A program made the translations under genes and the position numbers. Shown here one piece after another: positions 19,418 through 58,290 of a stretch of DNA of 64,000 nt. Source of the DNA: Parcubacteria group bacterium Gr01-1014_8. Lineage in GTDB: Bacteria > Patescibacteriota > Minisyncoccia > Phycocordibacterales > UBA2100. Every line of letters begins with the position of its first letter. Within the stretch, counting starts at the first letter, position 1. The stretch lies in contig VMGC01000001.1 of assembly GCA_007376385.1 (NCBI GenBank), positions 64,001 through 128,000 on the forward strand, read 5' to 3'. Under the pieces are notes generated by a model. It did not search any database, was not told where the DNA came from, and saw nothing but the letters and a program-made list of their open reading frames with translations.

Positions 19418-20554
19418 CTACTTCAGGTATTTCTTTTTCTTTAGTTTCTCTGGCAAGTAACTTTCGCTATCGTAGAGCGTATAGCCTTTGTGATATCCCA
19501 AGTCTTTCATCAATTTCGTCGGTGCATTTCGGATATTCAATGGAATCGGAAGATTACCGAATTTTTTAACGTCATCGAGTGCTTCAAATATTGCGTCATA
19601 TGAGCGTCTGTCTTTTTTACATTGTGCGAGATACGCAACTCCATGCGCCAGACTTATCGTCGCTTCCGGATAACCTATCTTGTTGACCGCGTCGAACACC
19701 GCATTCGCGACAACGAGCGCAGTCGGTTGTGCCAATCCAATATCTTCGCTCGCAAAAACAACCATACGGCGCGCTATGAACTTCGGATCCTCTCCGGCCT
19801 CAACCATCCGAGCCAAATAATAGAGCGCAGCATCAGGCTGGGATGCGCGCATTGATTTAATGAACGCCGAGATAGTATTGTAGTGCTCCTCGCCTTTTTT
19901 ATCATATCGAAGATGTTTTGATTGGACGGCCTCTTTCAAAGTCTCGACGGAAATCTTTCCATAAAGTTTGTCCGCAGTTTCGAGAACAGTGATTGCTTGC
20001 CTCGCATCGCCTCCGGCCATCTGTATTAACCAGTCGCGTGCCTCTTTTGGAATTTTAAATTTTGTACGGACTAATATCTTCTCCATTTCCTTCTCGCTCA
20101 ATTCGTTCAAGACGAACGCCCGGCAGCGCGAAAGAAGAGGGGAAATGATCTCGAACGAAGGATTCTCCGTTGTTGCCCCAATAAGTGTGATGTCGCCGCG
20201 TTCTACGAACGGGAGCAAGAAATCTTGTTGTGCCTTGTTAAATCGGTGAATTTCATCAACAAACAGGGCCTTTGGCTTCTGTTTTAACAAGGTGCCGCGA
20301 GCACCAATGACCCTCTTTATGTCATCTTTGCCAGAATCAACAGCCGAGAGCTCATAGAATTCAGCGCCAACGGCGTTCGCATAGATACGAGCCAGTGTCG
20401 TCTTTCCAGAGCCGGGTGGACCCCATAATATGAAGGAAAATAGCTCTTTTTTTTCGATCGCAATCCGAAGCGGCTTACCTTTTCCGACCAAATGTTCCTG
20501 ACCAATGAACTCTTTTAAAGCGGTCGGGCGGATGCGTGATGCCAGTGGTTCCAT
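19418..20554 (-). CDS. rarA: Replication-associated recombination protein A (AAA+ ATPase RarA/MgsA)
   Basis: Walker A GPPGSGKTT, Walker B LFVDEIHRFNK, sensor ATTENP. Start set at MEPLASRIRP (conserved PLA.R.RP N-terminus) rather than the longer ORF-track start. Confidence 0.85.
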   Translation of the reverse strand: MEPLASRIRPTALKEFIGQEHLVGKGKPLRIAIEKKELFSFILWGPPGSGKTTLARIYANAVGAEFYELSAVDSGKDDIKRVIGARGTLLKQKPKALFVDEIHRFNKAQQDFLLPFVERGDITLIGATTENPSFEIISPLLSRCRAFVLNELSEKEMEKILVRTKFKIPKEARDWLIQMAGGDARQAITVLETADKLYGKISVETLKEAVQSKHLRYDKKGEEHYNTISAFIKSMRASQPDAALYYLARMVEAGEDPKFIARRMVVFASEDIGLAQPTALVVANAVFDAVNKIGYPEATISLAHGVAYLAQCKKDRRSYDAIFEALDDVKKFGNLPIPLNIRNAPTKLMKDLGYHKGYTLYDSESYLPEKLKKKKYLK

Positions 20555-30993: not shown

Positions 30994-32019
30994 TTAGAAG
31001 GGATTCCTCGGACCGCCACGGATCTCAAAGTGAACATGAGCGCCTGTCGACCGGCCGGTCGAGCCGACGTACCCGATGACTTGTCCTTGCACTACATGCT
31101 GGCCAACCCCGATGATGAGACTCGAAGCATGAGCATAGAGCGTTTGCGTGCCGTTGTCATGCTTGATGACAACGTACTCACCATACCCGCCGTTCCAACC
31201 AGTACCTTTAGAAACGATGACATCGCCAGGAGCAGATGCAAGGATTGGGGTCCCAGCAGGAGCCGCAAGGTCAACACCGTTATACCCGTGTATGCCCTGA
31301 GAACGGATGCCACCAACGATAGGTCGAAGATAGTACCCTGCGTATTGTGCAGAACTGCCTCCCGACGCTGATAATTTTGGAGTGGCCACCCGAGGCGCCG
31401 ATGCCAATTCACCGTCCGGAATGATGATCTCATCGCCCAACGTCAGCGACGAAGCCGCAATGCCGTTGAAATTTGCAATTTCATCCGCATCGCCATGGAA
31501 TACTTTAGCAATAGAAGCAAGCGTATCTCCCTTCTTAACTTTGTATTTAATACCCGTTACCGGAAGTATGGTTAGGGTCTGGCCGACTCGAATGGTGCCG
31601 CTTGCAGAGATATCGTTGGCCCATTTAATGGTATTCATCGACACGTCAAACATCTCTGCAATCTCCGAAAGCGTGTTGCCTTCCTGCACAACATATATGC
31701 TGATGGATTGATTCTTCGTCTTTACAATGTCCGCTATGGTGCCCGATGGACCTTCATCCGGAAGAAGCGCCGAATCATCGACAACGGTTACGTCACCACC
31801 GCCTTTAGATGGATTAGGGTCAATGTTCATTGCCGCTTTGGGAAGCGGCAACGTTTGTAGGTTCGGGATATTTTGTTCGAGGGCTTCGGCTTTCTTCTCT
31901 TGTGTCATGCTCTCTGTCATCGAGATAAGAAAGCTCCCAACTTTGCCTGCTCCCTCGGATAAGATGCCCAACATAGACGCATGCACCGTACTCGGCAGCA
32001 CCGTTCCTGCAAGAAGCAT
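30994..32019 (-). CDS. Secreted LysM-repeat M23-family metallopeptidase
   Basis: Start set at MLLAGTVLPSTVHA (signal peptide); the upstream in-frame part of the ORF is Arg-rich and not protein-like. Two LysM repeats (YVVQEGNTLSEIA..., YKVKKGDTLASIA...) and the M23 motif block (H..G.D.......I.A...G.V.....GYG..V.I.H..G..T.Y.H.....V..G..V..G..IG.VGSTG.STG.H.HFE). Confidence 0.8.
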   Translation of the reverse strand: MLLAGTVLPSTVHASMLGILSEGAGKVGSFLISMTESMTQEKKAEALEQNIPNLQTLPLPKAAMNIDPNPSKGGGDVTVVDDSALLPDEGPSGTIADIVKTKNQSISIYVVQEGNTLSEIAEMFDVSMNTIKWANDISASGTIRVGQTLTILPVTGIKYKVKKGDTLASIAKVFHGDADEIANFNGIAASSLTLGDEIIIPDGELASAPRVATPKLSASGGSSAQYAGYYLRPIVGGIRSQGIHGYNGVDLAAPAGTPILASAPGDVIVSKGTGWNGGYGEYVVIKHDNGTQTLYAHASSLIIGVGQHVVQGQVIGYVGSTGRSTGAHVHFEIRGGPRNPF

Positions 32020-32369
32020 AAGGGAAATGAAAGAAACGCCTGCCTTGCCGCGTCCAATCCTTCGTATGGTCTGAAGATATCCCCTTTGGGCTACTCCAGA
32101 ACGTGTTTTTTTGTACAAAATATGCCCTTTACGGTCTGTTAACCCGTCTCGTGCGAAAGATGTAGGCCTCTGTCTGAATCTCCTATGAAGGCCTGCACGA
32201 CAGGCCGGAGGATGATTGCCTAAATCTTCAATAACGATTGCGGTACAAAGCCGTTTTTTTGGGGTAGCTGGCCAGAAATGCGGGATTCTTTGGCTCAAAA
32301 TCTCACTTTTTTGAGATTCTCGCCTGACTGGAAAATCAGAATCGCTACCGCCTCTATAACTGTAGCCGG

Positions 32370-34400
32370 ATGGAGTGGGGAGTCAACAACCCTTATATTT
32401 CACAAGGGGATAACTATTTTGTCAAATTAAGCTGTCGATCATGCTATAGTGCGCCAGTGAAGCACTTGCATGGCTTAAATGAAAGACAAATGGAGGCAGC
32501 CCTCCATACAGAAGGGCCTCTCCTCATCGTCGCGGGGGCGGGGGCTGGCAAGACAAAAACCATTACACACCGCATTGCACACCTCATGTCAAAGGGGGTA
32601 TCAGGAGCAAGCATCCTCGCTGTCACATTCACTAACAAGGCTGCCGGGGAGATGAGGGGGCGCATCCGAAAACTCCTTAGCAATAGTGTCCACGAGATGC
32701 CATACGTAGCTACCTTCCATTCGCTGGGGGTAAGGCTCCTCCGAGAGTTTGCAAACAAGGCTGGAATATCACGGCAATTCGTCATTTGGGATAGGGACGA
32801 CAGCACACGGGCGCTAAAAAAAGTCCTAAAGGATAAGAGTCTGGATGAAAGATACAATCCAAGAGCAATCTTGAGCGTGATCTCGCGGGAGAAGGGCGAA
32901 GGAAGGGTCGCCGAAACATATGGCGAAAGCACGCGGACTCCGTTTGAAAAGGCCGTTGCGGAAGCTTGGACACAGTACGAAAAGGATGCCGCAACGGAAC
33001 ATGCGCTCGATTTCGATGACCTTCTCCTACGTACGCTCTTGCTGCTGCAGAAAGATATCGATGTCTTATCCGAACTGCAACAGCGATGGTCATATATCAC
33101 TATTGACGAATACCAGGATACAAACCGCGTGCAATATGAGTTGGCACGCCTCCTTGGGGGAGCGCGGATGAATGTCTGTGCGGTCGGCGATGTCGACCAG
33201 AATATCTACAGCTGGAGAGGGGCTGATATCGCACATCTGCTTTCGTTTGAAACAACATACCCGCACACAAAGACAATTCTCCTCGAAAAAAACTACCGCT
33301 CTACGCAAACCATTCTCACGGCAGCAAACGCAGTCATAGCAAAAAATACGCGCCGCTATGCGAAGAACTTGTACACCGACAACCCGACGGGGGAGGCCAT
33401 CACCCTCTATGGCGCGCCAGATGAACGAATGGAAGCGCAGTTCGTTGTTAGGAGTGCGAGGGAACTCATGTCAAGCGGCGTGGATGCCTCCGAAATTGCG
33501 GTGCTATATCGGGAAAATTTTCAATCTCGATCTCTGGAAGAAGTGTGTATCGAGCTTGGGATCCCGTATCGCGTGCTCGGAGTGCGCTTCTTTGAACGCA
33601 CTGAAGTGAAAGATTTGCTTTCGTATCTGCGTGCTGCACTAAATCCAGCAAGTCGGATGGATATTTCACGCATCATAGCCTCGCCGCCTCGCGGCATCGG
33701 CAAGCAGACATTAGAAAAGCTATTTTCCGGAAATGAGACGCTGCTGCAGGCCAGCGCTCGCGCAAAAATATTGGTTTTTCGCACACTACTCTCGAAGATA
33801 CGGGAAAAAATCGAAACAGCAAGCGCTTCCAAGGCCGTGCACTTTGCCTTCATCGAGAGCGGACTCGAAAAACATTTTAAGGAAGGGGACGAAGAAGACA
33901 GAGAGCGGTTCAACAACGCTCGGGAACTCGTCTCACTCGCAACAAAATATGATGCGCTCCCAGCGCCCCTTGGCATCGAACATTTGCTTGAGGACGCTGC
34001 GCTTATGAGCGAACAGGATTCTCTTGATCCAGCTCTTTCCGGGGGCAAAACTAAACAGAGCGCGATATCACTCATGACCGTTCATGCTTCAAAAGGGTTA
34101 GAATTCGACGCAGTATTCATAACTGGCCTCGAACAAGGTCTTTTCCCATCGATGCACGAATCAGACGACAGGGACCCGGAAGAGGAGCGGCGTTTATTTT
34201 ATGTTGCGCTCACTCGGGCACGAAAACACCTTTTCCTCTCGTACGCGGCAAGCAGATTAAAATATGGCTCTCGCGAATATACGATGCCTTCAGAGTTTCT
34301 CGAAGATATTGATACCCGGCTTTTTGCTCCAGCACCAAGCCCATTTGTGCATCGAAAACGCGGGCTTCTCGACACCTGGAGTGAAGACGCTATTACATGA
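32370..34400 (+). CDS. pcrA: UvrD/PcrA/Rep-family ATP-dependent DNA helicase
   Basis: Helicase motifs: LNERQMEAAL, Walker A GAGAGKTKT, motif II TIDEYQDTN, motif VI VALTRARKHLFLSY. The start may be GTG 32457 rather than ATG 32370. Confidence 0.9.
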   Translation: MEWGVNNPYISQGDNYFVKLSCRSCYSAPVKHLHGLNERQMEAALHTEGPLLIVAGAGAGKTKTITHRIAHLMSKGVSGASILAVTFTNKAAGEMRGRIRKLLSNSVHEMPYVATFHSLGVRLLREFANKAGISRQFVIWDRDDSTRALKKVLKDKSLDERYNPRAILSVISREKGEGRVAETYGESTRTPFEKAVAEAWTQYEKDAATEHALDFDDLLLRTLLLLQKDIDVLSELQQRWSYITIDEYQDTNRVQYELARLLGGARMNVCAVGDVDQNIYSWRGADIAHLLSFETTYPHTKTILLEKNYRSTQTILTAANAVIAKNTRRYAKNLYTDNPTGEAITLYGAPDERMEAQFVVRSARELMSSGVDASEIAVLYRENFQSRSLEEVCIELGIPYRVLGVRFFERTEVKDLLSYLRAALNPASRMDISRIIASPPRGIGKQTLEKLFSGNETLLQASARAKILVFRTLLSKIREKIETASASKAVHFAFIESGLEKHFKEGDEEDRERFNNARELVSLATKYDALPAPLGIEHLLEDAALMSEQDSLDPALSGGKTKQSAISLMTVHASKGLEFDAVFITGLEQGLFPSMHESDDRDPEEERRLFYVALTRARKHLFLSYAASRLKYGSREYTMPSEFLEDIDTRLFAPAPSPFVHRKRGLLDTWSEDAIT

Positions 34401-35200
34401 TACGAAACATCAAGAGAAAAGGAGCGCGGCTGGGACAACATTTTCTCAAATCGTCCTCCGTTGCGGCAGCCCTCGCCGACAGCGCACACATAGCGAACAA
34501 TGATACGGTTTTAGAAATAGGACCTGGCACAGGTGCCTTAACAGGAGAATTATTGCGGCGCGGCGCGCGTATCGTCGCAGTTGAAAAGGATGAGGCATTG
34601 GCTCACATACTAGGGACAACATTCAAAAATTCCCTCGCGAATGGCGCTCTCACCATTGTTGTCGATGATATCCGCAATGTCACACCAGAATCTCTACAAC
34701 TTTCGGAGGGACAATACATACTTGCTGCAAATATCCCGTACTACATCACCGGAGAAATTATCCGGCAATTTCTGTCAGCACACTCACAGCCAAAGACAAT
34801 GGCGCTCCTTATACAAAAAGAGGTCGCTGAGCGGATCGCGAAAAGTAAAAAGGAGAGCATTCTTTCTCTATCTGTAAAAGTGTATGGAATTCCGCACCTT
34901 GCTAAAGCCGTCGGGCGCGGCAATTTTTCCCCGCCTCCGTCGGTCGATTCTGCTATCCTCGCTATCACTGATATTTCACGAGCAAATTTTAAACACATGT
35001 CCGAAGAACAATTTTTCCGTACGGTACGTGCCGGCTTCGCCTCCAAGAGAAAAGTGCTCCGAGCAAACCTTGCCAAAATCTCGTCCGCCCCACGCGTCGA
35101 ACATGCATTTTCCGTCTGCAACCTTCCATTCAATGTTCGTGCGGAAGACGTGCCACTTCAATCATGGCTCGAACTTGCAAAAGCGATTGAACACGACTGA
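34397..35200 (+). CDS. rsmA: 16S rRNA (adenine1518/1519-N6)-dimethyltransferase
   Basis: 267 aa; GQHFL...VLEIGPG.G.LT..L motifs of KsgA/RsmA. 4-nt overlap with the helicase stop. Confidence 0.9.
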   Translation: MIRNIKRKGARLGQHFLKSSSVAAALADSAHIANNDTVLEIGPGTGALTGELLRRGARIVAVEKDEALAHILGTTFKNSLANGALTIVVDDIRNVTPESLQLSEGQYILAANIPYYITGEIIRQFLSAHSQPKTMALLIQKEVAERIAKSKKESILSLSVKVYGIPHLAKAVGRGNFSPPPSVDSAILAITDISRANFKHMSEEQFFRTVRAGFASKRKVLRANLAKISSAPRVEHAFSVCNLPFNVRAEDVPLQSWLELAKAIEHD

Positions 35201-36145
35201 TTACCGTCCCGGCGTGGGAGACGCTTTATCTATCCAGTCTGACGCAGTGTCGGTGTCTCTTGTCGGCAAGCTTCTTGCCATTGAGTGCCCGTCAGGTACA
35301 ACAGGAACCGACGGACTGAACGCATTCGTGTTCGTGCCCCACGACGCTGCATCTGCGGGCGATGCAGAAATTGAACTGCGAATTCGTACCACATCTCCTC
35401 CATTCGTGAGTCCATTTCCGATGGAGCTACCTAGTATTACGACAACAGTGTCCGAAGGAATATTCCATTTATTCTTTGTATTTTCATTTGCGACAATGAG
35501 CATGTATTTTCCGGGCGCAAGCGTTGTGTTACTTGGCAGAGTATCGGAACCTCCTGCATTTTGGATGATCCAGCCTGAAAGATTTACCGTATTCCCAGTG
35601 CCGTTGTACAACTCCACCCATTCATTATCAGGATCGTCTCCATGTGCCCAGTCGACATCGTAGTAAATTTCATTGATCACAAGCTTCGGTGTCTCCGGAG
35701 GCGGCACAGGACTTGGCGATGGAGAGGGAGATGGCGAAGGTGACGGACTCGGGCCTGGGCTTGGACTTGGTGATGGATTTGGCGGCGGCCTGTATGCTGG
35801 CGCAGCCGGACCGCTCGAGCCCATCATCATTATGGAAATAGCAGGCTGCACATAAATGGGACTGACGGACCACAAGCAGTCATATGGAATACCCGTTAAC
35901 CCTAATAGCCACTGTCCTACATTGCGCGGCGGTCCGAACTGGTACGTTCTTGTCGAGCGCGTCCACACATAATCTCCGGGGACTGGCGGTGAGAGCCTTG
36001 TAAAAATTGTTTCGTTGTAGCAGACGTGATAGACCGTGATGCGCCCGCCGAACGGAAATGCAAGCGCGGGGGCGCTGAACAGCGCCCAGAAAAGCAGAGA
36101 CATCAATATGAACAAGGAAAGCTTCGACGCTAAAGCCATATGCAT
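35201..36145 (-). CDS. Secreted lamin-tail-domain (LTD) protein with (Pro-Ser)n linker
   Basis: N-terminal signal/TM; C-terminal LTD-like pattern (VINEIYYD...EWVELYN.....L.GW.I). Confidence 0.6.
   Translation of the reverse strand: MHMALASKLSLFILMSLLFWALFSAPALAFPFGGRITVYHVCYNETIFTRLSPPVPGDYVWTRSTRTYQFGPPRNVGQWLLGLTGIPYDCLWSVSPIYVQPAISIMMMGSSGPAAPAYRPPPNPSPSPSPGPSPSPSPSPSPSPSPVPPPETPKLVINEIYYDVDWAHGDDPDNEWVELYNGTGNTVNLSGWIIQNAGGSDTLPSNTTLAPGKYMLIVANENTKNKWNIPSDTVVVILGSSIGNGLTNGGDVVRIRSSISASPADAASWGTNTNAFSPSVPVVPDGHSMARSLPTRDTDTASDWIDKASPTPGR
35696..35785. repeat. Low-complexity (Pro-Ser)n coding repeat within LTD protein
   Basis: PNPSPSPSPGPSPSPSPSPSPSPSPVPPP; seen on the plus strand as ggcgatggagagggagatggcgaaggtgac repeats. 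Confidence 0.8.
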
Positions 36146-39707: not shown

Positions 39708-42104
39708 ATGAAGGCTTTCTTGAGAACAGCGAAATATAAAGGGAAGACCATGACGGTAATACTCTTATTATTGTTCTTGTTCCCAATTATTCTCGGAATA
39801 TTTACCCCCGCGACCGCAGCGGCGGCTGAGGAATGTCCCCCAGGCCAAATTTGGGATCCTGGTGAAGATTATGGCGCAGATGTTAGTAGACCAGGTAGGG
39901 CTCCCGGCTGTGTACCAAACACGGCCGAAAACAAAACCGTAATCGCAACGCAGGAAGCACGTCCGGACACAACGGTCGGCCCTGGCGAATGTACTCGCTG
40001 GTGGCATCCCCTCACGCAGCCCATCAACTGCGCGTTCATACCGCTCGCAAGCTGGTCTGGGGCACTCTTCATGTCATTTGGAGCCGCGCTACTGCAGGCG
40101 TCCGGGGCTGTTTTCAATACTCTGGTGAAGTGGATAGTTGTCGAGTTCGGCAGCACCATACAAACGCTCGGCCTCTTGGACGGAATACACCAGGCATGGG
40201 AGATCTTGCGTGACATTTCGAACATCGTCATCATCGGCATGTTCGTCTTTATTGCCATATCGATGATACTGGGGAACGAGACATTCGGAGCAAAAAAATT
40301 AGTCGCGCACGTCCTCATCATCGCCGTCCTGATAAATTTTAGCTTGCTTTTCTCGAAGCTCATTATTGATGCTGGAAACTTTACTGCATACCAATTTTAC
40401 AAAGCCATGGGGGGTACCGCAGACGATGAGTTCGACATTGCGGGCAGATTTTACAGCGTCGTCGGTATAACAAGCGCATGGGACAGCTTTGCCGTTGCCG
40501 AACGCTTCGCGCGCGGCTCGCAAAAAGCAGGTACAAAGCCAGGAGAAAGTAGCACGACGGGTAACAATTTTGCCGCCGGCGTAAGCGGTTTCTTGTACGG
40601 CATATTCGGCGGGATGCTGCTCATCGCATCCGCTATCGTTTTATTCTACGGCTCATATCTCATCATCGTCCGAGCCGTCCTCCTCGTTTTTCTTATGCTT
40701 GTTTCCGCACTCGCATTCGCATCATGGCTCGTACCAAAAATGAACAGTGGCAGCATCAGTTTCAGTGCATGGTGGAAATCGCTCATCAATGCTTCAGTGT
40801 TCGCGCCGCTCCTTATGATCATGCTCTACGTATCACTCCTCATCATGAACCCTGCAGCAGGAAAACGAGAAGGGAGCTTAGGCGCTATCGCAGGTAACCC
40901 GGAAAAAGTGGGGCAAAACTGGAAGACGCTTATCATTTTTATCTTCGGCATCGGCATGCTCTACGTGTCGTTCAAGGTCGCGAACACATTCTCGAGACAG
41001 ATAGCCGGGTTTAGCGTAGCGAGCGGCGCCGTCGGCAAGGCATTTGGAGCAACGGCGGGTACAGCCGGACTTTTTGGCCGCTACTCGCTGGGACTCCTAG
41101 GCTCACAGCTCGCTGCGAGAACTGGGCTTGGCACAATGGACGGCCTCAAAGGCAGGATAGCGCGTGCTGGATTAAGTTCTCTTGCTACAGGCAGTTTTGA
41201 CGTGCGTCGCATCCCTGGCGTTGCCTCCGGCGCAAAATACGGCGTAGATTTTGGTAAAGCAAAAGGAGAAGGCGGATACCTCAAGGCTGTTTCCGATAGA
41301 GAAAAGAGAATAATCGCAACGGAAGCAGGATATCGCCAGATGGTGACCACAAAAACAAACTCCGACTTTAAGGAAGAGCGTTTGCTTGAAGAACAGAAGC
41401 AGGCTGCCGCGAAGCGAATTAGAGAACAAGAAGCTCGTGCGGCAGAGCTTTCTAAACACCCTGCAGTCGCAGGCAAGCCTGCTGAAAAAGCTCAGCCAAC
41501 TCCAGCACCAGCCACGCAAGGCGCTTACGGTAGAACGCAGACCGCGCGCGATATCGCGGACGCTCAGCAACGGCAAGCGCAAACTGCAGCAGCTGGAAAA
41601 GAAGAAGGAAAGATCTCGACAGACGCAGAAACGGCTCGAATTGCTCGCATCGAACGGGGTCTACGAGCAGAAGAGAAACAAAGCTATCTTACCGAAGGCC
41701 AAGTAAGGTCTGCCGCACAAGCTACTCTTGCCGCAGGCGTTGCACCGACCGATGAAAACAGGGCAGTCGTTGAGGAATTACGAAAGGTGCGAGAATCCAT
41801 CACTGCCGAAAAAGAATTGCTAGCGCGTCTGGAAAAAACACCCACATCAAGAGATATCCGTGGACAGAAGTTCGATGACGCTATGAGGAATAGCTTCTAC
41901 TTCTTGGACTTCAGCAAACACCGCACGGCTGCTCGCGCAGAAAAGATAGCAGAGACGGCACGCAAGACAGACTATCAGAAGCTTGCTGAACGATTGGCAA
42001 AAGATATGGAGGATGTCGCCAAAAAAGAAGGAAAAAAGACTGCCGACGTAGTAAAAGAGGCAGTCGAAAAAGCGGCAGGGCCTGCTAAGGAGGCCGGACA
42101 CTAA
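39708..42104 (+). CDS. VirB6/TrbL-like polytopic membrane protein with Cys-rich N-terminal ectodomain and long charged C-terminal tail (gene D)
   Basis: 798 aa; signal peptide, Cys-rich about 100-aa segment, then about 6-7 TM helices in a TrbL/VirB6-like arrangement, then an about 330-aa K/E/A/R-rich predicted coiled-coil tail. Assignment is by topology and synteny with PrgI/VirB4, not strong sequence identity. Confidence 0.5.
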   Translation: MKAFLRTAKYKGKTMTVILLLLFLFPIILGIFTPATAAAAEECPPGQIWDPGEDYGADVSRPGRAPGCVPNTAENKTVIATQEARPDTTVGPGECTRWWHPLTQPINCAFIPLASWSGALFMSFGAALLQASGAVFNTLVKWIVVEFGSTIQTLGLLDGIHQAWEILRDISNIVIIGMFVFIAISMILGNETFGAKKLVAHVLIIAVLINFSLLFSKLIIDAGNFTAYQFYKAMGGTADDEFDIAGRFYSVVGITSAWDSFAVAERFARGSQKAGTKPGESSTTGNNFAAGVSGFLYGIFGGMLLIASAIVLFYGSYLIIVRAVLLVFLMLVSALAFASWLVPKMNSGSISFSAWWKSLINASVFAPLLMIMLYVSLLIMNPAAGKREGSLGAIAGNPEKVGQNWKTLIIFIFGIGMLYVSFKVANTFSRQIAGFSVASGAVGKAFGATAGTAGLFGRYSLGLLGSQLAARTGLGTMDGLKGRIARAGLSSLATGSFDVRRIPGVASGAKYGVDFGKAKGEGGYLKAVSDREKRIIATEAGYRQMVTTKTNSDFKEERLLEEQKQAAAKRIREQEARAAELSKHPAVAGKPAEKAQPTPAPATQGAYGRTQTARDIADAQQRQAQTAAAGKEEGKISTDAETARIARIERGLRAEEKQSYLTEGQVRSAAQATLAAGVAPTDENRAVVEELRKVRESITAEKELLARLEKTPTSRDIRGQKFDDAMRNSFYFLDFSKHRTAARAEKIAETARKTDYQKLAERLAKDMEDVAKKEGKKTADVVKEAVEKAAGPAKEAGH

Positions 42105-42108
42105 ATCT

Positions 42109-42657
42109 ATGGCTGACGATATAAAAAAGGTACTTGAGGAGCGTTTCAATTCACTGCCAGATGCCGTGCAAAAGGCCATTCTTTCCGGCCATATCCAGGA
42201 AAAATTTCAGGAGTTGGCAAGAAAGCACCAGCTGCATGTCGACGCGTGGCAACAAGTCGAGAACAAAATAATGCTGACGGTGCTCGGCGTCATACAGCCT
42301 GAAGAGCTGGTCGACAAAATAGTGAACGAAACCAATGTTGGTGCGGAGAAGGCGGCTACCATCGTGAGCGACATCGCTCTTTCAGTCTTTAAGCCAATTC
42401 GGGAAGAACTTGAGAGAGAGTTGGGACATCCTCAAGCGAGAGAAGAAGTCATATCGGACATAGAGAAAGTCCGACAAGAAGTGTTATCACAGGCGCCTGC
42501 ACCCCAAGTAGCGGCTCCTGTACCTGCAACACCCCCAAATCCGCTGCCGACTGAAAAAGTTGCCCGCGCTCCCGCTTCAGGCGCATACAAACCAGGAGAG
42601 ACGAGCGTCGAGAGAGCAGATGTTCACGACGACCCTTACAGGGAGCCGCCTCTCTGA
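42109..42657 (+). CDS. Hypothetical soluble acidic protein (gene E)
   Basis: 182 aa, no TM, Pro/Ala-rich C-terminus; starts 5 nt after gene D stop. Confidence 0.45.
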   Translation: MADDIKKVLEERFNSLPDAVQKAILSGHIQEKFQELARKHQLHVDAWQQVENKIMLTVLGVIQPEELVDKIVNETNVGAEKAATIVSDIALSVFKPIREELERELGHPQAREEVISDIEKVRQEVLSQAPAPQVAAPVPATPPNPLPTEKVARAPASGAYKPGETSVERADVHDDPYREPPL

Positions 42658-42797: not shown

Positions 42798-43298
42798 ATG
42801 CAATTTCAAGTACCCCAATTTATTGAGGTCGAGGATAAGATATTCGGTCCACTCACCTTTAAGCAATTCGTCTATGTCGCAGGAGGCGGCGGATTGGCCT
42901 ACCTCATCTGGCGGGTACTCCCCATCTATCTCGCGGCGCCGCTCGTCGCAGGCTCCCTTGGTCTCGGAGCAGCCCTCGCTTTTATGCAGTACAACGGGCG
43001 CCCCTTCATTCTCGCTCTTGAGCACGGCTTTTATTTTTTTCTGCGTTCGAAACTCTACTTATGGAATAATCAGCGGCGAAACAAGAAGCTGGCGGCGTCT
43101 GCAAACGAGCAACATCAACAGACACCAGAAATTTATGTGCCGAAGCTGTCGGAGAGCAGGTTGCACGAACTTGCGTGGAGCCTCGACATCAAGGAGCGGA
43201 TCGCTGCTGGTGTTGCGAATGAGGATGATAGAAATGAAATGCCTCGTTCCCGGCTCGTTGCTCCTATTCGAACCGCCCGCAGCGCTTTAGTGCAATAA
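42798..43298 (+). CDS. PrgI-family (VirB3-like) small membrane protein
   Basis: The N-terminus FQVPQFIEVEDKIFGPLTFKQFVYVAGGGGLAYLIW plus two TM helices matches the PrgI family, which precedes VirB4 in Gram-positive-type T4SS. Confidence 0.6.
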   Translation: MQFQVPQFIEVEDKIFGPLTFKQFVYVAGGGGLAYLIWRVLPIYLAAPLVAGSLGLGAALAFMQYNGRPFILALEHGFYFFLRSKLYLWNNQRRNKKLAASANEQHQQTPEIYVPKLSESRLHELAWSLDIKERIAAGVANEDDRNEMPRSRLVAPIRTARSALVQ

Positions 43299-43304
43299 TA
43301 GAGT

Positions 43305-43976
43305 ATGTCAGAGATCACATCATCAATACCGCGCGTGAGCAGCAAAGCAACCCAAGATTTTGTGCCCGTGCATGAAGTTCGGGATGGCGTCGTTGTCCTC
43401 AAAGATGGAGGCCTTCGAGCAATACTCCTAGCCTCGTCATTGAACTTCGCACTGAAATCCGAGGACGAGCAAACCGCATTTATCGTTCAATTCCAGAATT
43501 TTCTCAACTCACTGGATTTTTCCGTACAGATATTCGTGCAATCACGAATGCTCGACATACGCCCCTACATCGCCACCTTGGAGTCACAGTTCAAACAACA
43601 ATTGGACGACCTTATGCGCATACAGATACGCGAATACATCGGCTTCATAAAAAGCTTCACTGAAGCCGCTAACATCATGACGAAGAATTTCTTTATCATC
43701 GTGCCGTACTCGCCCGCGATCATCCAAACCGGTCAAGGAATACTCGGCAAATTGCCCTTTACCGGCAAAAAGAAAAATTCTGAAGAAGAGAACCGCACTT
43801 TTGAAGAACAAATATCGCAGCTCGAGCAGCGCATCTCCATCGTCCAGCAGGGGCTCATCCGCACCGGCGTCCGCACCGTCCAGCTTGGAACTGAGGAAGC
43901 GATAGAATTGATGTACAAAATGTTCAACCCCGGTGAAGAAGGGAAGCCAATGGCCGTTCCTGAATCGCAAAAATAG
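43305..43976 (+). CDS. Hypothetical protein between prgI-like and virB4 (gene G)
   Basis: 223 aa soluble; stop TAG 43974-43976 and virB4 ATG at 43978. The N-terminal part (VPVHEVRDGVVVLKDGGLRAILLASSLNFALKSEDEQ) weakly recalls VirB4/TrbE N-terminal segments. Confidence 0.45.
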   Translation: MSEITSSIPRVSSKATQDFVPVHEVRDGVVVLKDGGLRAILLASSLNFALKSEDEQTAFIVQFQNFLNSLDFSVQIFVQSRMLDIRPYIATLESQFKQQLDDLMRIQIREYIGFIKSFTEAANIMTKNFFIIVPYSPAIIQTGQGILGKLPFTGKKKNSEEENRTFEEQISQLEQRISIVQQGLIRTGVRTVQLGTEEAIELMYKMFNPGEEGKPMAVPESQK

Positions 43977-43977
43977 T

Positions 43978-45969
43978 ATGGCGCTCCTCGATCTATTCAA
44001 GAAAAAAGGGCCGCAGTCCGTAGTCTTGCCCGTATTGCCTGAAGAGATATTCCGCACGGGAGTTCTTGACCTTCAAGACGTCATCGCACCTCACGCTCTC
44101 CGCATTTCACCTCGCGAACTCGACCTTGGGGAAAAGATCGCACGCACATTCTTCGTTATCTCGTATCCGCGTTTTCTTACGACAGGATGGTTCGCGCCCA
44201 TCATTAACATGGATAAAATAATCGACATTTCGATATTCATTCACCCGATGGATACGAATGAAATGCTTCGAAAATTCCAAAAGAAAGTGGCAGAGGTTCA
44301 GAGCCAGATATCAACGCGGGAAGGGAAGGGCATGGTCAGAGACCCTATGCTTGACACCGCCTACGCTGACCTTGAAAAATTGCGTGATTCACTCCAGCAA
44401 GCACAGGAGCGCATCTTTGAAGTAGGATTGTATCTCACCATTTACGGCTCCACTCGCGAAGAAGTTGATAAGATAGAAAGCGAGGTACGCTCAATTCTTG
44501 AATCGCGCCTTGTGTATATCCGTCCCGCGCTATTCCAGCAAGAGCAAGGCTTCAGAAGCGTTCTGCCGACGGCAACCGATGAACTGAATGTGCACACAAA
44601 ATTGAATTCAGCCCCTCTTTCATCGGTATTTCCGTTCATTTCCTTCGACCTGACGTCCGACCGGGGAATTCTATATGGCATAAACCGCCATAATTCATCT
44701 CTCATTCTTTTTGATCGCTTCTCGCTTGAGAACTACAATTCAGTGACCTTTGCCAAGTCCGGTGCGGGAAAATCCTACACGACAAAACTTGAGATCCTGC
44801 GTTCGTTGATGTTCGATACAGAAGTCATCGTCATCGACCCCGAACGTGAATACGAATATCTCGCAGAGACGGTCGGCGGACGTTATTTCAATATCTCACT
44901 CTCCTCGGAGCACCACATCAATCCCTTTGACTTGCCGATACCGCGAGAAGATGAGAACCCCGGGGATGTGCTGCGCAACAATATCATCACGCTTGTCGGA
45001 CTTTTCCGTATCATGCTCGGAGGTTTGACGCCCGAAGAAGACGCCATCATCGACAAGGCCATCACCGAAACGTATGCCCTGAAAGACATCACGCAAGATG
45101 CGAATTTCGCAGCAGTCGAGCCGCCGCTTCTTTCCGACTTCGAACTCGTACTCTCCGGCATGGAGGGCAGCGATTCACTGGTTCAGAGACTCTCGAAATA
45201 TACAAAGGGCACGTGGTCAGGATTTATGAACCGCCCGACGAACGTTGACATGAATAAAAAATTGGTCGTCTTCTCGGTGCGAGACATGGAGGACGACCTG
45301 AAACCTGTCGCTATGTACATCATCACGCACCACATCTGGAATACCGTGCGAAAGGAACTCCGTAAACGACTCCTGGTGATCGATGAGGCATGGTGGATGA
45401 TGCGTTCCCAAGATACTGCGTCTTTCCTGTTTTCAATCGCAAAACGTGGACGTAAATACTATCTTGGAATCTCTACCATCACGCAAGACGTATCAGACTT
45501 TTTGAACTCCCCGTATGGAATACCGATGATAACCAACTCTTCTATCCAGCTCCTGCTCCGCCAATCGCCAACATCGGTCGACCTCGTGCAACAGACATTC
45601 AAATTGTCAGACGAGGAAAAATACCTGCTCTTGGAATCCGATGTAGGTGAAGGCATTTTCTTCGCAGGGCTGAAGCACGTAGCCATAAAAGTCATTGCTT
45701 CGTATACGGAAGACCAAATAATCACGTCCGACCCATCGCAGATACTTGCCATCCGCAAAGCGAAACAGGAACTGGTCTTGGCAAACGAGCCACAGAATGT
45801 AGCCCAGACGACCCCGATATCTCAAACCAAGGAAGCGGCCGCTATACTCCAAAGCTCGGCGTTAAAACCCGCTGAAGTGCCAAATACGCCAACGCCGCAG
45901 GCATCACCAACATCCGCGCCAAATACTACCCGACAAGTAGCATCAATTTTGGAGAGACCGGGTAATTGA
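43978..45969 (+). CDS. virB4: VirB4/TrbE/CagE-family type IV secretion ATPase
   Basis: 664 aa from MALLDLFKKK.... Gram-positive-type VirB4 N-terminus (L.D.IAP...IG....RT..V..YPR), Walker A FAKSGAGKS, Walker B LLVIDEAW, conserved C-terminal motifs. Confidence 0.85.
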   Translation: MALLDLFKKKGPQSVVLPVLPEEIFRTGVLDLQDVIAPHALRISPRELDLGEKIARTFFVISYPRFLTTGWFAPIINMDKIIDISIFIHPMDTNEMLRKFQKKVAEVQSQISTREGKGMVRDPMLDTAYADLEKLRDSLQQAQERIFEVGLYLTIYGSTREEVDKIESEVRSILESRLVYIRPALFQQEQGFRSVLPTATDELNVHTKLNSAPLSSVFPFISFDLTSDRGILYGINRHNSSLILFDRFSLENYNSVTFAKSGAGKSYTTKLEILRSLMFDTEVIVIDPEREYEYLAETVGGRYFNISLSSEHHINPFDLPIPREDENPGDVLRNNIITLVGLFRIMLGGLTPEEDAIIDKAITETYALKDITQDANFAAVEPPLLSDFELVLSGMEGSDSLVQRLSKYTKGTWSGFMNRPTNVDMNKKLVVFSVRDMEDDLKPVAMYIITHHIWNTVRKELRKRLLVIDEAWWMMRSQDTASFLFSIAKRGRKYYLGISTITQDVSDFLNSPYGIPMITNSSIQLLLRQSPTSVDLVQQTFKLSDEEKYLLLESDVGEGIFFAGLKHVAIKVIASYTEDQIITSDPSQILAIRKAKQELVLANEPQNVAQTTPISQTKEAAAILQSSALKPAEVPNTPTPQASPTSAPNTTRQVASILERPGN

Positions 45970-48982: not shown

Positions 48983-49138
48983 ATGAAAAAAGTTGCATCT
49001 AAGGTGCGCAGCGCGCGGAAGACGTTCGCATTTATCTCCCTTTCCGGCCTGAATGGTCCGGAATTCGCTCCGTTCCTCACCGCCGCGTTCAATAGCCAGA
49101 ATTTTCCCACATTCGTGAACGCTCTCTTTAAGGGTTGA
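48983..49138 (+). CDS. Small ORF (51 aa), paralog 1 of duplicated module
   Basis: MKKVASKVRSARKTFAFISLSGLNGPEFAPFLTAAFNSQNFPTFVNALFKG*; starts 2 nt after the upstream gene's stop; contains the 99-bp repeat. Confidence 0.3.
   Translation: MKKVASKVRSARKTFAFISLSGLNGPEFAPFLTAAFNSQNFPTFVNALFKG
49035..49133 (+). repeat. 99-bp perfect direct repeat, copy 1
   Basis: tctccctttccggcctgaatggtccggaattcgctccgttcctcaccgccgcgttcaatagccagaattttcccacattcgtgaacgctctctttaagg is identical at 49645..49743. Confidence 0.9.
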
Positions 49139-49589
49139 ACATTGTGGGCAGGATGAAGCCACTTCCTGCCGCTCCGAGGCTTCCTACGAGCACCGCGCCT
49201 GCGGAAAGCACTTTTACCCCGCCAGACCCGGATCAAACTGTGGTCGCCCCCGTGAATAGCAACGTTGATCGATGGTGTACAACATCAAGTTCTGGAGGAG
49301 CCACACTATGTTTTACCGGGCCTCAAGCGCAGCGAAATTGCAACGCGCAATACGCATCAAGAGGCATCGATAGGCAGTGCACGTCCTTCCCAGCTCAATA
49401 AAGGTTCCTCGGAGCAAGCTCTGAGGTATTGAACCTGTGTTTGCGCATATTGCCCATTTAAAAATAATCATACATCGCTAGAGATGCCCTGCACTCGCGA
49501 TATAATAGAACTGCAGACAACTATAGTGCCTTGCTGCCAGACATTACGACATGCGTAAAGATATGTGTTCGCGACCTGCCTCGCGTACA

Positions 49590-49871
49590 ATGAAAAAAAT
49601 ATTGTCCAAGTTTCGGGAGCTGCCTCACGCGTTCCAGGGTTTCGTCTCCCTTTCCGGCCTGAATGGTCCGGAATTCGCTCCGTTCCTCACCGCCGCGTTC
49701 AATAGCCAGAATTTTCCCACATTCGTGAACGCTCTCTTTAAGGAACAATTCACGCAACCGCCTGCACAGAATTCGTTCTTCGGAGGAGCAGGCGGACAAT
49801 TTGATCCTTCGCTCAATGGAGTTGGCGTCTCAGGTAATGAAATAGGGAACCCAAACCCATCATCACCGTAG
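49590..49871 (+). CDS. Small ORF (93 aa), paralog 2 of duplicated module with Gly-rich C-terminus
   Basis: MKKILSKFRELPHAFQGFVSLSGLNGPEFAPFLTAAFNSQNFPTFVNALFKEQFTQPPAQNSFFGGAGGQFDPSLNGVGVSGNEIGNPNPSSP. It shares the SLSGLNGPEF...FVNALFK core with paralog 1. Confidence 0.35.
   Translation: MKKILSKFRELPHAFQGFVSLSGLNGPEFAPFLTAAFNSQNFPTFVNALFKEQFTQPPAQNSFFGGAGGQFDPSLNGVGVSGNEIGNPNPSSP
49645..49743 (+). repeat. 99-bp perfect direct repeat, copy 2
   Basis: Identical to 49035..49133 by eye over about 99 nt; the flanks diverge. Confidence 0.9.
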
Positions 49872-57193: not shown

Positions 57194-57682
57194 TTAGCCG
57201 ATTTTGCGTGCGTGAGCCAGATGAGTGACGCCGACGGCGATAGCATCGTATTCATCGTCGTGTTGTATGTCTTTTTCTATCTTGATGAGCGCATGAAGCA
57301 TCGTCGCGACTCCTTTTTTATCTGCTCTCCCAGAGCCAGTCGTCGCCGATTTCACCTGTCCCGGCGTGTATTCAAAAACGGGCACGTTCGCGAGTTCAGC
57401 GACGTGCAAGATGGCGCCTCGTACTTCCGCGACTTGCATCGCTGTCTTTTGATTTGAGTTGAAAAACAGTCTTTCCATTGCGAGCGCCTGGGGAGAGTGT
57501 TTTTTCAAGAGGCGCGAACATTCGTCCGCGACGTGTGAGAGTCTTTCGCCGAAGGAAGAAGAGGCGGATGTTTCGATGCATTCAGAATAGAGAAGTGTCT
57601 CCTTACCGTTCTCCCTTTCCAATACGGCAACGCCGCATCGTCCGTACCCGGGGTCGATGGCAAGCACTTTCATACGCATCAC
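57194..57682 (-). CDS. ruvC: Holliday junction resolvase RuvC
   Basis: 162 aa; VLAIDPGYGRCGVAV ... ERLFFNSNQKTAMQVAEVRG ... DAIAVGVTHL catalytic acidic residues. Confidence 0.9.
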   Translation of the reverse strand: MMRMKVLAIDPGYGRCGVAVLERENGKETLLYSECIETSASSSFGERLSHVADECSRLLKKHSPQALAMERLFFNSNQKTAMQVAEVRGAILHVAELANVPVFEYTPGQVKSATTGSGRADKKGVATMLHALIKIEKDIQHDDEYDAIAVGVTHLAHARKIG

Positions 57683-58290
57683 TCAAGCGGTACCAGGTAG
57701 TGAGTCACCGTTTTTCTCTCCTCTCCTTCCATTTCAGTTTCCGTACGCATGACGCTGCCCTGATTTAGTTCTATGCCCAGCTTTTTGACCAAGGCTTCGC
57801 TCGCTTTATTTCCTTCAACAACAGGAAAAATCAATCTTTCGATAGGCGCTCCTCGCGCTTTTTGTTCTTTTGCGAGTCTGACAACTGCATGAAGCATTTC
57901 GATGCCGTATTTCTTGTTTCGCAATTCCGGAGCAACCCACAACGTTATCTTGTATTCATTGGCGCGTTTGGTCGGGAAGATACCACATCTTCCTATCAAT
58001 TTATTGGTCATCGGGTGCAACGCAACGAGATCAAAGAGCGTTTTTCCTCTGCGCTCGACACGATCGCGTGTTTCCGCGATAGAGGCTTCTATCTCTGAAA
58101 TCGTCTGGGGACGCTTGCCATCAACCCATCTGTCAGCAACCTCCTCAGTGAATGTCGGAAGAATACGAGCTGCATCTTCGTTCCGGATAAATCTGAGTTT
58201 TAAATGCAAACGGGGCGTGTCGATTTTTGTACCTAAAAGGCTCTTGTCTACGACCGGATCTACGTCCATGTCTTCCGGGTGCTGTCTCAT
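57679..58290 (-). CDS. GNAT-family N-acetyltransferase
   Basis: 203 aa; acetyl-CoA-binding motif-like segment (RNKKYGIEMLHAVVRLAKE); 4-nt overlap with the ruvC start. Confidence 0.65.
   Translation of the reverse strand: MRQHPEDMDVDPVVDKSLLGTKIDTPRLHLKLRFIRNEDAARILPTFTEEVADRWVDGKRPQTISEIEASIAETRDRVERRGKTLFDLVALHPMTNKLIGRCGIFPTKRANEYKITLWVAPELRNKKYGIEMLHAVVRLAKEQKARGAPIERLIFPVVEGNKASEALVKKLGIELNQGSVMRTETEMEGEERKTVTHYLVPLE

What the first reader, a model, noticed from the sequence alone, without database searches (positions are those of the whole stretch)
43305..45969. Extra ORF wedged between the PrgI-like gene and virB4; its stop sits one nucleotide before the virB4 ATG, and an in-frame upstream extension of virB4 overlaps it
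The 223-aa ORF G ends at TAG 43974-43976, and virB4 ATG 43978 follows 1 nt later. The virB4 reading frame is also open upstream to 43933 (MKKGSQWPFLNRKNS...), overlapping the last 44 nt of ORF G. The N-terminal region of G (…PVHEVRDGVVVLKDGGLRAILLASSLNFALKSEDEQ…) weakly resembles the extreme N-termini of Gram-negative VirB4/TrbE. The 664-aa VirB4 itself starts with a Gram-positive-type N-terminus (L.D.IAP...IG...RT..V..YPR). There are three possibilities: G is a genuine separate T4SS component; G-H is a fused VirB4 split by an assembly frameshift; or it is a programmed frameshift.
Basis: partly seen in the sequence, partly recalled or inferred. Interest (0 to 1): 0.5.

Follow-up and report, generated by a model that had tools for sequence, protein, structure and literature searches.

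The report
Stand-alone N-terminal piece of VirB4 (TrsD-like)
The "extra" gene is the N-terminal part of the type IV secretion ATPase VirB4, encoded as its own small protein just upstream of the rest of the enzyme; this natural two-gene layout is conserved in thousands of Patescibacteria genomes, is already published, and is not a frameshift or an assembly error.

Summary
ORF G (43305-43976, 223 aa) ends at TAG, one nucleotide before the ATG (43978) of a 663-aa VirB4-type ATPase (H).

G is not an extra component. It is the detached N-terminal half of the VirB4 N-terminal domain, a TrsD/TraD-like protein:
- G matches the first ~120-180 positions of VirB4 profiles, and H matches the remainder.
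- G's AlphaFold model hits only TrwK/VirB4 in the PDB.
- Staphylococcal plasmid pSK41 has the same order (trsC, trsD 227 aa, trsE 672 aa), and TrsE starts at the same point as H.

In 76 of 76 scorable related genomes G ends in a stop and H starts at the aligned ATG. The spacers run from 1 to 411 nt and use all three frame offsets, so neither an assembly frameshift nor a programmed frameshift fits. A second assembly is identical at the junction.

A sister clade (Colwellbacteria and others) carries the two parts fused as one ~790-aa VirB4.

A 2025 paper reports TrsD homologues as the most abundant T4SS component in Patescibacteria, mostly beside virB4, and essential in one cultured strain.

The upstream in-frame extension of H is at chance level and is not conserved.

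Verdict: real, ordinary and already known.

The parts
42798..43298 (+). PrgI-family (VirB3-like) small membrane protein, 166 aa. It is the presumed membrane anchor that contacts the VirB4 N-terminal domain.
   Evidence: Pfam PF12666 PrgI, E 5.4e-10. Present upstream of G in 79/80 related loci. It occupies the same position as trsC in pSK41.
43305..43976 (+). ORF G, 223 aa: a TrsD/TraD-like stand-alone protein that corresponds to the N-terminal half of the VirB4 N-terminal domain. The conserved motif NFALKSEDEQ lies at 43443-43472 and the conserved C-terminal FNPGEEGKP at 43923-43949.
   Evidence: NCBIfam hits to the N-terminal positions of VirB4 models and to TrsD. hhalign against pSK41 TrsD: probability 81%, E 1.2e-5, 175 columns. 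AlphaFold model with pLDDT 89, whose top 14 PDB hits are all TrwK/VirB4. More than 7,900 homologues, nearly all stand-alone.
43974..43980 (+). Gene junction TAG-t-ATG: the stop of G, one spacer base, then the start of H.
   Evidence: The same 1-nt arrangement (TAA/TAG-t-ATG) occurs in 15 of 76 related loci, and 42 of 76 have spacers of 10 nt or less. It is identical in a second assembly.
43978..45969 (+). ORF H, 663 aa: a short VirB4-type ATPase made of the second half of the N-terminal domain plus the ATPase domain. Walker A (SGAGKS) is at 44758-44775 and Walker B (VIDEAW) at 45376-45393. The N-terminus MALLDLF...VLPVLPEE is conserved, and the last ~70 residues are low-complexity.
   Evidence: NF045971 CD1110-family VirB4, 358.5 bits, model positions 185-733 of 752. 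Pfam P-loop_TraG, E 1.4e-23. PDB 4AG5 VirB4 C-terminal domain, E 9.7e-42, and TrwK residues 446-735. Collinear with pSK41 TrsE from residue 7. The start at the aligned ATG is conserved in 76 loci.
39708..42104 (+). 798-aa protein, judged by eye to be a polytopic membrane protein, at the head of the conserved gene block. It is a candidate VirB6-like channel subunit; this identity was not tested.
   Evidence: No Pfam hit. Syntenic on the same strand in 67-68 of 80 related loci. The assignment is an inference from position only.
42109..42657 (+). Conserved 182-aa protein of unknown role between the large membrane protein and the PrgI-like gene.
   Evidence: No significant Pfam hit. Present in 75/80 related loci.

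Best explanation
G and H together are one VirB4, the core ATPase of a Gram-positive-type (MPF-FATA) type IV secretion system, encoded as two polypeptides.

Shown:
- G (223 aa) is the N-terminal half of the VirB4 N-terminal domain, equivalent to TrsD of pGO1/pSK41 and TraD of pIP501.
- H (663 aa) is the rest of that domain plus the Walker A/B ATPase domain, equivalent to TrsE/TraE.
- The genes sit in domain order directly after the VirB3-like PrgI gene.
- This arrangement is inherited and under purifying selection in this lineage.

Inferred:
- G folds on its own and docks non-covalently onto the N-terminal part of H, rebuilding the complete N-terminal domain.
- That rebuilt domain is what the PrgI/VirB3-like membrane protein wraps around, so G helps tether the H hexamer to the membrane translocon.
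- The 1-nt stop/start spacing favours coupled, roughly equimolar translation of the two halves.

No frameshifting is involved.
For: Sequence:
- G hits the N-terminal parts of VirB4 profiles: CD1110 family 2-118 of 752, Mbov_0397 family 100-234 of 894, TIGR00929 3-182 of 792. It also hits the TrsD/TraD family.
- H hits CD1110 positions 185-733 with E 7e-107.
- 16 of 82 G-family members hit Pfam TraC_F_IV. The precomputed annotation names the domain PF26593 TraC-like.

Structure:
- The G model has pLDDT 89.1 and pTM 0.79.
- Foldseek ranks 14 TrwK/VirB4 chains first (probability 0.98-1.00, TMq 0.37-0.57, 189-215 columns), followed by a sharp drop.

Precedent:
- pSK41 has trsC (135 aa), trsD (227 aa), trsE (672 aa) in that order.
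- The G-family profile aligns with TrsD over 175 columns.
- H aligns with TrsE from residue 7 to residue 5 onwards, E 3e-35, so the split point is the same.

Conservation of the split:
- 76/76 scorable loci have the stop and the aligned ATG. Spacers are 1-411 nt, frame offsets are 35/21/20, and all three stop codons are used.
- Of the 150 best 50%-identity cluster representatives, 149 are stand-alone proteins of 146-443 aa.

Natural fusion:
- P0255 (797 aa) joins a G-like part (41% identity) to an H-like part (56% identity).
- More than 115 further clusters of 775-807 aa have this fused form, encoded right after PrgI.
- TIGR00929 covers P0255 residues 17-750 in one stretch.
- The P0255 model aligns end to end with TrwK (803-849 columns, E down to 5e-26).

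Assembly: an independent ENA contig is identical over 15.8 kb, including the junction.

Literature:
- TrsD is the most abundant T4SS component in Patescibacteria. 1,664 of 2,272 homologues lie next to virB4, and the gene is essential in Ca. S. epibionticum ML1 (PMC12102498).
- In R388, VirB3 wraps around the VirB4 N-terminal domain (residues 15-400), and that domain mediates VirB4 dimer contacts (PMC9259494).
Against: - No direct evidence here that G binds H or PrgI. No complex was modelled and no experiment exists for this organism.
- G scores far below the curated cut-off of the NCBIfam TrsD model (24.6 against 200 bits). The link to TrsD is remote homology plus synteny, not family membership by threshold.
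- The local Pfam copy gives no hit for G, even at E up to 10.
- PDB sequence searches with G or with its family profile find nothing.
- Translational coupling is inferred from spacing only. One third of relatives have spacers of 70-100 nt, so tight coupling is not obligatory.
- In Gracilibacteria, TrsD homologues are reported not to lie next to virB4.
Confidence: 0.88

Rival explanations
1. G and H are one virB4 gene broken by an assembly or sequencing indel, or by a recent pseudogenising frameshift, near 43930-43980.
For: H lies in the +1 frame relative to G and is separated from it by a single base. The H frame is open 22 codons upstream. Fused ~790-aa versions exist in other Patescibacteria.
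Against: - The stop and the aligned ATG start are conserved in 76/76 scorable loci from different species, with spacers of 1-411 nt and all three frame offsets.
- The G C-terminus (FNPGEEGKPMP...) and the H N-terminus (MALxDL...VLPVLPEEIY) are conserved as termini.
- An independent assembly is identical at the junction.
- The fused clade has a different, shorter linker and lacks the H N-terminal motif. It is therefore a distinct architecture, not the same gene minus an indel.
Confidence: 0.01
2. A programmed +1 ribosomal frameshift at the G stop (AAA-TAG-T) makes a full-length fused VirB4 in addition to the separate products.
For: With a 1-nt spacer, a +1 slip at the stop would read ...ESQK-S-MALLD... 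in frame. The same 1-nt spacing recurs in 15 of 76 relatives, and offset 1 is the commonest class (35/76).
Against: - More than half of the relatives have offsets 0 or 2, or spacers of 70-411 nt full of stops, yet keep both genes intact. A fused product therefore cannot be required.
- No conserved slippery or stimulatory element is visible upstream of the stop.
- The excess of offset 1 is not significant (my chi-square on the counts is about 5.6 with 2 degrees of freedom) and the loci are not phylogenetically independent.
Confidence: 0.03
3. G descends from the VirB4 N-terminus but now works independently of H, for instance as a regulator or inhibitor of assembly, or as an adaptor for another ATPase or substrate.
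For: [quoted passage not shown] TrsD homologues in Gracilibacteria are not linked to virB4 (PMC12102498). Many family members carry long low-complexity C-terminal tails, up to 443 aa in total, which could be interaction modules.
Against: - H lacks exactly the segment that G supplies.
- The fused clade shows that the two parts function as one chain.
- Gene order equals domain order and adjacency is near-universal in this lineage (78/80 loci).
- G is highly conserved (median 79% identity), alongside H (89%).
Confidence: 0.08

Closest known systems
TrsD (pGO1/pSK41) and TraD (pIP501), with the short VirB4 TrsE/TraE, of the MPF-FATA conjugation systems of Firmicutes
   Same: - A stand-alone protein of about 225 aa (G 223 aa, TrsD 227 aa) is encoded between a VirB3-like gene and a short VirB4 of about 665 aa (H 663 aa, TrsE 672 aa).
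- Full-length remote homology: hhalign E 1.2e-5 over 175 columns.
- H and TrsE are collinear from their first residues, so the split point is the same.
- TrsD is described as remotely homologous to the VirB4 N-terminus (PMC12102498).
   Different: - Sequence similarity is low: 24.6 bits against a 200-bit cut-off for NF041427.
- The gene is chromosomal, lies in a Patescibacteria genome, and has no relaxase seen in the neighbourhood examined.
- The Patescibacteria system is thought to be repurposed from conjugation and needed for epibiotic growth.
- The spacer is 1 nt here and 14 nt in pSK41.
N-terminal domain of full-length VirB4 (TrwK of R388, PDB 7O43/8RTB/8RTD; CD1110-family and F-type TraC proteins)
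   Same: - The predicted fold of G matches TrwK chains only.
- G aligns to the first ~120-180 positions of VirB4 profiles.
- In R388 this domain is where VirB3 binds and where VirB4 dimer contacts form (PMC9259494).
   Different: - Here the segment is a separate polypeptide ending in a conserved stop.
- Sequence identity to TrwK is 10-17%.
- TM-scores are moderate (0.37-0.57).
Fused TraC-like/VirB4 proteins of other Patescibacteria (for example Candidatus Colwellbacteria; P0255, 797 aa)
   Same: - They combine a G-like N-terminus (41% identity) with an H-like remainder (56% identity).
- The genomic context is the same, directly after PrgI.
- Precomputed domains are PF26593 TraC-like followed by P-loop_TraG.
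   Different: - They are a single chain with a short linker.
- They lack the conserved H N-terminal segment MALLDLF...VLPVLPEE and the G tail.
VirB3-VirB4 fusion proteins of some conjugative systems
   Same: They show that the boundaries between the VirB3, VirB4 N-terminal and VirB4 ATPase modules are evolutionarily plastic (mentioned in PMC12102498).
   Different: The direction is opposite (fusion rather than fission). No VirB3-VirB4 fusions were found in Patescibacteria, and PrgI is a separate gene here.

Membership tests
TrsD/TraD family conjugative transfer protein (NCBIfam NF041427) | Score at or above the curated whole-protein cut-off of the family model (200 bits) | tested here: not met
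   24.6 bits, E 1.9e-5, G residues 14-133 against model positions 13-142 of 201.
TrsD/TraD family conjugative transfer protein (NCBIfam NF041427) | Homology over most of the length to a bona fide TrsD (pSK41 WP_000979860) | tested here: met
   hhalign of the 82-sequence G-family profile against pSK41 TrsD: probability 81%, E 1.2e-5, 175 aligned columns, G 14-209 against TrsD 32-217. This is remote homology, not close similarity.
TrsD/TraD family conjugative transfer protein (NCBIfam NF041427) | Stand-alone protein of about 200-230 aa encoded directly upstream of a short VirB4 and downstream of a VirB3-like gene | tested here: met
   Window: PrgI 166 aa, G 223 aa, H 663 aa. pSK41: trsC 135 aa, trsD 227 aa, trsE 672 aa.
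TrsD/TraD family conjugative transfer protein (NCBIfam NF041427) | Hit with the CONJScan/MacSyFinder MPF-FATA TrsD profile used in the Patescibacteria survey | not testable with these tools
   That profile is not in any available library. The survey reports 2,272 such hits in Patescibacteria (PMC12102498).
VirB4 N-terminal domain (TIGR00929 N-terminal part; Pfam PF11130 TraC_F_IV; PF26593 TraC-like) | Sequence match to the N-terminal positions of VirB4 family profiles | tested here: met
   NF045975 positions 100-234 (E 3.7e-10), TIGR00929 positions 3-182 (E 1.4e-5), NF045971 positions 2-118 (E 2.4e-4). 16 of 82 family members hit PF11130.
VirB4 N-terminal domain (TIGR00929 N-terminal part; Pfam PF11130 TraC_F_IV; PF26593 TraC-like) | Pfam PF26593 (TraC-like) domain hit | tested here: inconclusive
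   Precomputed annotation lists PF26593 for the identical protein P0001 and for all 120 listed homologues. The local Pfam scan of G returns nothing even at E up to 10. The model is probably absent from the local copy.
VirB4 N-terminal domain (TIGR00929 N-terminal part; Pfam PF11130 TraC_F_IV; PF26593 TraC-like) | Fold matches the N-terminal domain of a solved VirB4 | tested here: met
   Foldseek of the G model (pLDDT 89) against the PDB: ranks 1-14 are all TrwK/VirB4 chains, probability 0.98-1.00, TMq 0.37-0.57. The next hit has probability 0.21. The tool does not report target residue ranges.
VirB4 N-terminal domain (TIGR00929 N-terminal part; Pfam PF11130 TraC_F_IV; PF26593 TraC-like) | Covalently continuous with the ATPase domain | tested here: not met
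   A conserved stop separates G from H here and in 76 related loci. Continuity is present only in the fused clade.
VirB4/TraC-type T4SS ATPase (ORF H) | Family profile score above cut-off, with Walker A and Walker B motifs | tested here: met
   NF045971, 358.5 bits against a 325-bit cut-off. Walker A SGAGKS at residues 261-266 and Walker B VIDEAW at 467-472. PDB 4AG5 VirB4 C-terminal domain, E 9.7e-42.
VirB4/TraC-type T4SS ATPase (ORF H) | Complete N-terminal domain within the same polypeptide | tested here: not met
   H covers only model positions 185-733 of 752 (NF045971) and 275-724 of 792 (TIGR00929). G supplies the missing part.
Programmed ribosomal frameshift gene pair | Conserved frame relationship, overlap and slippery or stimulatory site across orthologues | tested here: not met
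   Frame offsets are 35/21/20, spacers run from 1 to 411 nt, and no overlap or shared motif is present.

The most novel reading that the evidence does not exclude
The fission of VirB4 is functional rather than neutral. As a separate polypeptide, G together with PrgI would form a membrane docking platform that the H hexamer joins reversibly. This would give these epibiotic bacteria an on/off or stoichiometry control over a T4SS they need for growth, and the fused and split lineages would then differ in how the machine is regulated.

A weaker variant is that the fission was created by one of the IVS-like palindromic elements, some carrying a four-helix-bundle gene, that occupy this very junction in about a third of relatives. 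However, the same elements also occur in the PrgI-G spacer, so the junction is not a special target.
Probability: 0.12. Interest if true: 0.45.

Novelty: already known. Interest (0 to 1): 0.15.

Why it matters
For this window the result is mainly an annotation fix. The "hypothetical protein" G should be named TrsD-like / VirB4 N-terminal module, and H is a short VirB4 that is complete only together with G.

More broadly, the Patescibacteria T4SS is reported to be essential for epibiotic growth. Knowing that its core ATPase comes in two pieces (or fused, depending on lineage) matters in three ways:
- for building structural models of the machine;
- for counting T4SS components in metagenomes;
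- for not mistaking such gene pairs for frameshifted pseudogenes.

The co-existence of fused and split clades is a natural "Rosetta stone". It predicts a G-H physical interaction and suggests a function for the so-far function-less TrsD/TraD proteins of staphylococcal and enterococcal plasmids.

Tried and rejected
- Local Pfam scans of G at E up to 0.1 and up to 10 found nothing. The precomputed PF26593 hit could not be reproduced.
- PDB sequence searches with G alone and with the 82-sequence family profile gave only chance hits, E about 1-2. Only the fold comparison found VirB4.
- The assembly-frameshift and programmed-frameshift readings were rejected on comparative evidence.
- I checked whether the lack of a Shine-Dalgarno sequence before H argues for coupling. 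It does not, because only 4 of 48 long ORFs in the window have one.
- I considered that the IVS-like hairpins are specific to the G/H junction. This was rejected because similar hairpins, in L024 nearly the same element, also sit in the PrgI-G spacer of several loci.
- A tblastn search for the four-helix-bundle gene in the window found nothing.
- The model of the fused relative has only moderate confidence (pLDDT 71.5, pTM 0.50). I used it only for overall collinearity with TrwK, not for interface details.
- Read pile-ups could not be inspected with these tools.
Full report
**Source and observation.** The window comes from the metagenome-assembled genome "Parcubacteria group bacterium Gr01-1014_8". 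ORF G is 100% identical to its protein G01um10148_101, annotated as hypothetical.
- ORF G runs from ATG 43305 to TAG 43974-43976 (223 aa).
- One base follows, then ATG 43978 opens a VirB4-like ORF that ends at 45969. It is 663 aa, not 664.
- The H frame is open upstream to a GTG at 43933, and stop-free back to 43912.

That extension is not meaningful. A stop-free run of 15-22 codons is expected 34-48% of the time at this base composition, and its extent is not conserved in relatives. The gene upstream of G is PrgI-like (PF12666, E 5.4e-10).

**What G is, by sequence.** NCBIfam places G on the N-terminal positions of several VirB4 family models:
- Mbov_0397 family, positions 100-234 of 894, E 3.7e-10
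- TIGR00929 VirB4_CagE, positions 3-182 of 792, E 1.4e-5
- CD1110 family, positions 2-118 of 752, E 2.4e-4
- TrsD/TraD family, positions 13-142 of 201, E 1.9e-5

H matches the same CD1110 model from position 185 to 733 (E 7e-107) and TIGR00929 from 275 to 724. G and H are therefore complementary pieces of one VirB4.

H carries Walker A (SGAGKS, residues 261-266) and Walker B (VIDEAW, residues 467-472). It matches the solved VirB4 C-terminal domain 4AG5 (E 9.7e-42) and TrwK residues 446-735.

The local Pfam copy gives no hit for G itself. However, 16 of 82 family members hit TraC_F_IV, the N-terminal domain family of F-type VirB4. Precomputed annotation calls the domain PF26593 "TraC-like".

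**What G is, by structure.** An AlphaFold2 model of G was built on an 82-sequence alignment of diverse homologues and is confident (pLDDT 89.1, pTM 0.79). Foldseek against the PDB returns 14 chains of TrwK/VirB4 of plasmid R388 as the top 14 hits (probability 0.98-1.00, TMq 0.37-0.57, 189-215 aligned columns). The next hit has probability 0.21. Sequence-only searches of the PDB found nothing.

**Is the split real?** I fetched 80 loci from species-representative genomes (Kaiserbacteria, Paceibacterota and relatives).
- In all 76 loci where both genes could be scored, the G orthologue ends in a stop: TAA 37, TAG 31, TGA 8.
- In the same loci the H orthologue starts at an ATG aligned with H residue 1.
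- The spacer is 1 nt in 15 loci, 10 nt or less in 42, 70-98 nt in 24, and up to 411 nt.
- The frame offset between the two genes is 1, 2 or 0 in 35, 21 and 20 loci.
- The end of G (…FNPGEEGKPMP…) and the start of H (MALxDL…VLPVLPEEIY) are conserved as termini.
- G, H and PrgI have median identities of 79%, 89% and 63% across these genomes. The block large membrane protein - orf182 - PrgI - G - H - orf349 - orf454 is syntenic in most of them.
- An independent ENA assembly carries the identical protein. It is base-identical to the window over 15.8 kb, including the junction.
- Of the 150 best 50%-identity cluster representatives in an exhaustive search, 149 are stand-alone proteins of 146-443 aa.

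These results exclude an assembly frameshift, a pseudogene, and any required programmed frameshift.

**A natural fusion.** One representative, P0255 (797 aa), joins a G-like N-terminus (41% identity) to an H-like remainder (56% identity over 571 residues).
- It is one of more than 115 clusters of 775-807 aa, many named Candidatus Colwellbacteria.
- It is encoded directly after PrgI.
- TIGR00929 covers its residues 17-750 in one stretch.
- Its moderate-confidence model (pLDDT 71.5) aligns end to end with TrwK (803-849 columns, E down to 5e-26).
- The fused linker is short and lacks the conserved H N-terminal segment, so fused and split are two stable architectures rather than one gene with or without an indel.

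**Precedent and literature.** Plasmid pSK41 has the same layout: trsC (135 aa), trsD (227 aa, annotated TrsD/TraD family), then a 672-aa DUF87 protein, TrsE.
- The G-family profile aligns with TrsD over 175 columns (hhalign probability 81%, E 1.2e-5).
- H aligns with TrsE from residue 7 against residue 5 onwards (E 3e-35), so the split is at the same place.

Quiñonero-Coronel et al. 2025 (PMC12102498) report:
- 1,664 of these lie near virB4.
- The homologue in Ca. S. epibionticum ML1 is listed as essential.

The same paper notes KsgA and replication genes near virB4. The window has a KsgA-type methyltransferase at 34397-35200. The finding is therefore already described at family level.

**How it most likely works.**

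Shown: G is the N-terminal half of the VirB4 N-terminal domain. H is the second half plus the ATPase domain. Both are conserved and adjacent, in domain order, after a VirB3-like gene.

Inferred: G folds autonomously and docks onto H to complete the N-terminal domain. In R388 that domain (residues 15-400) is what VirB3 wraps around, and it mediates VirB4-VirB4 dimer contacts (PMC9259494). G would therefore help tether the H hexamer to the PrgI/VirB6-like membrane platform. The TAG-t-ATG junction is compatible with termination-reinitiation coupling. This rests on spacing alone: the genome hardly uses Shine-Dalgarno sequences (4 of 48 ORFs), and a third of relatives have long spacers.

**Rivals.**
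- Assembly or pseudogene frameshift: about 1%.
- Programmed +1 frameshift at the stop: about 3%. It is possible geometrically with a 1-nt spacer but is not conserved.
- A diverged, H-independent role for G: about 8%. TrsD has no assigned function and is unlinked to virB4 in Gracilibacteria. Against it stand the complementarity of G and H, the fused clade and the synteny.

**Side observations.** In about a third of related loci the G-H spacer is a 70-98-nt hairpin.
- The arms of the hairpin are short tandem repeats. They differ in sequence between loci but stay complementary.
- In three loci the spacer is 411 nt, has the same kind of arms, and encodes a four-helix-bundle protein (TIGR02436, E 1.7e-21). 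This family is known from 23S rRNA intervening sequences; the Coxiella IVS is 428 nt (PMC4990558).
- Similar elements also occupy the PrgI-G spacer in some loci and lie upstream of G in L072. They are general intergenic elements, not markers of the junction.
- Their presence confirms that the G/H boundary is true intergenic DNA.

**Verdict.** The arrangement is conserved, has a plasmid precedent, and is published. Interest is low.

Noticed in passing
Related loci, not the window: for example L041 1124-1203, L024 4664-4765, L069 4631-4730, L078 4655-4737 (G-H spacers), and L024, L038, L069, L079 (PrgI-G spacers): Intergenic hairpin elements of 70-100 nt. The two arms are short tandem repeats (for example GCTTCTAG x3 ... 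CTAGAAGC x3). The arms differ in sequence between genomes but stay complementary. The loop starts AAAATACAA...ATG. Folding energies lie 2.7-6.4 sd below shuffled controls. They occupy the G/H junction in about 24 of 76 loci and also the PrgI/G spacer in several loci.
   Followed up: partly
L033 4649-5065 (ORF 4673-5026), L035 4676-5092, L046 4646-5062, and L072 3563-3895: A 411-nt version of the same palindromic element sits between the TrsD-like gene and virB4. It carries a 117-aa four-helix-bundle protein gene (TIGR02436, E 1.7e-21), the family known from 23S rRNA intervening sequences. Here the element lies between protein-coding genes of the T4SS cluster. The short hairpins look like ORF-less derivatives that keep the ATG in the loop.
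   Followed up: partly
window 49035-49133 and 49645-49743: A perfect 99-nt direct repeat, 610 nt apart, lies inside two small + strand ORFs (48983-49138 and 49551-49871). Both share the peptide SLSGLNGPEFAPFLTAAFNSQNFPTFVNALFK. The independent ENA contig ends at about the first copy, which suggests the repeat breaks assemblies.
   Followed up: no
window, whole: for example upstream of ATG 36290, ATG 10854, the start of 19418-20554 (-) and the start of 57679-58290 (-): Only 4 of 48 long ORFs have a Shine-Dalgarno-like motif. Several instead have a TATAAT/TATACT-like box 7-12 nt before the ATG, which hints at frequent leaderless or very short-leader mRNAs.
   Followed up: no
P0176, P0208, P0229, P0186 (G-family members), and window 45760-45966 (H C-terminus): Many TrsD-like homologues of 300-443 aa carry long Pro/Gln/Ala/Thr-rich low-complexity C-terminal tails. 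H in the window ends in a similar tail of about 70 residues.
   Followed up: no
L083 1282-3470: A close relative (88% identity) of the fused-type VirB4 has its N-terminal module disrupted. Residues 1-89 lie in one frame and residues 193-796 in another, with about 100 residues missing, and the gene is called as a 600-aa protein. This is either a genuine decay of the module or an assembly error in that MAG.
   Followed up: partly
window 30994-32298 (-) and 35201-36145 (-): A LysM + peptidase M23 protein and a lamin-tail-domain protein lie near the T4SS block. The 2025 survey mentions M23/LysM domains among the additional domains carried by some VirB1 homologues in Patescibacteria.
   Followed up: no
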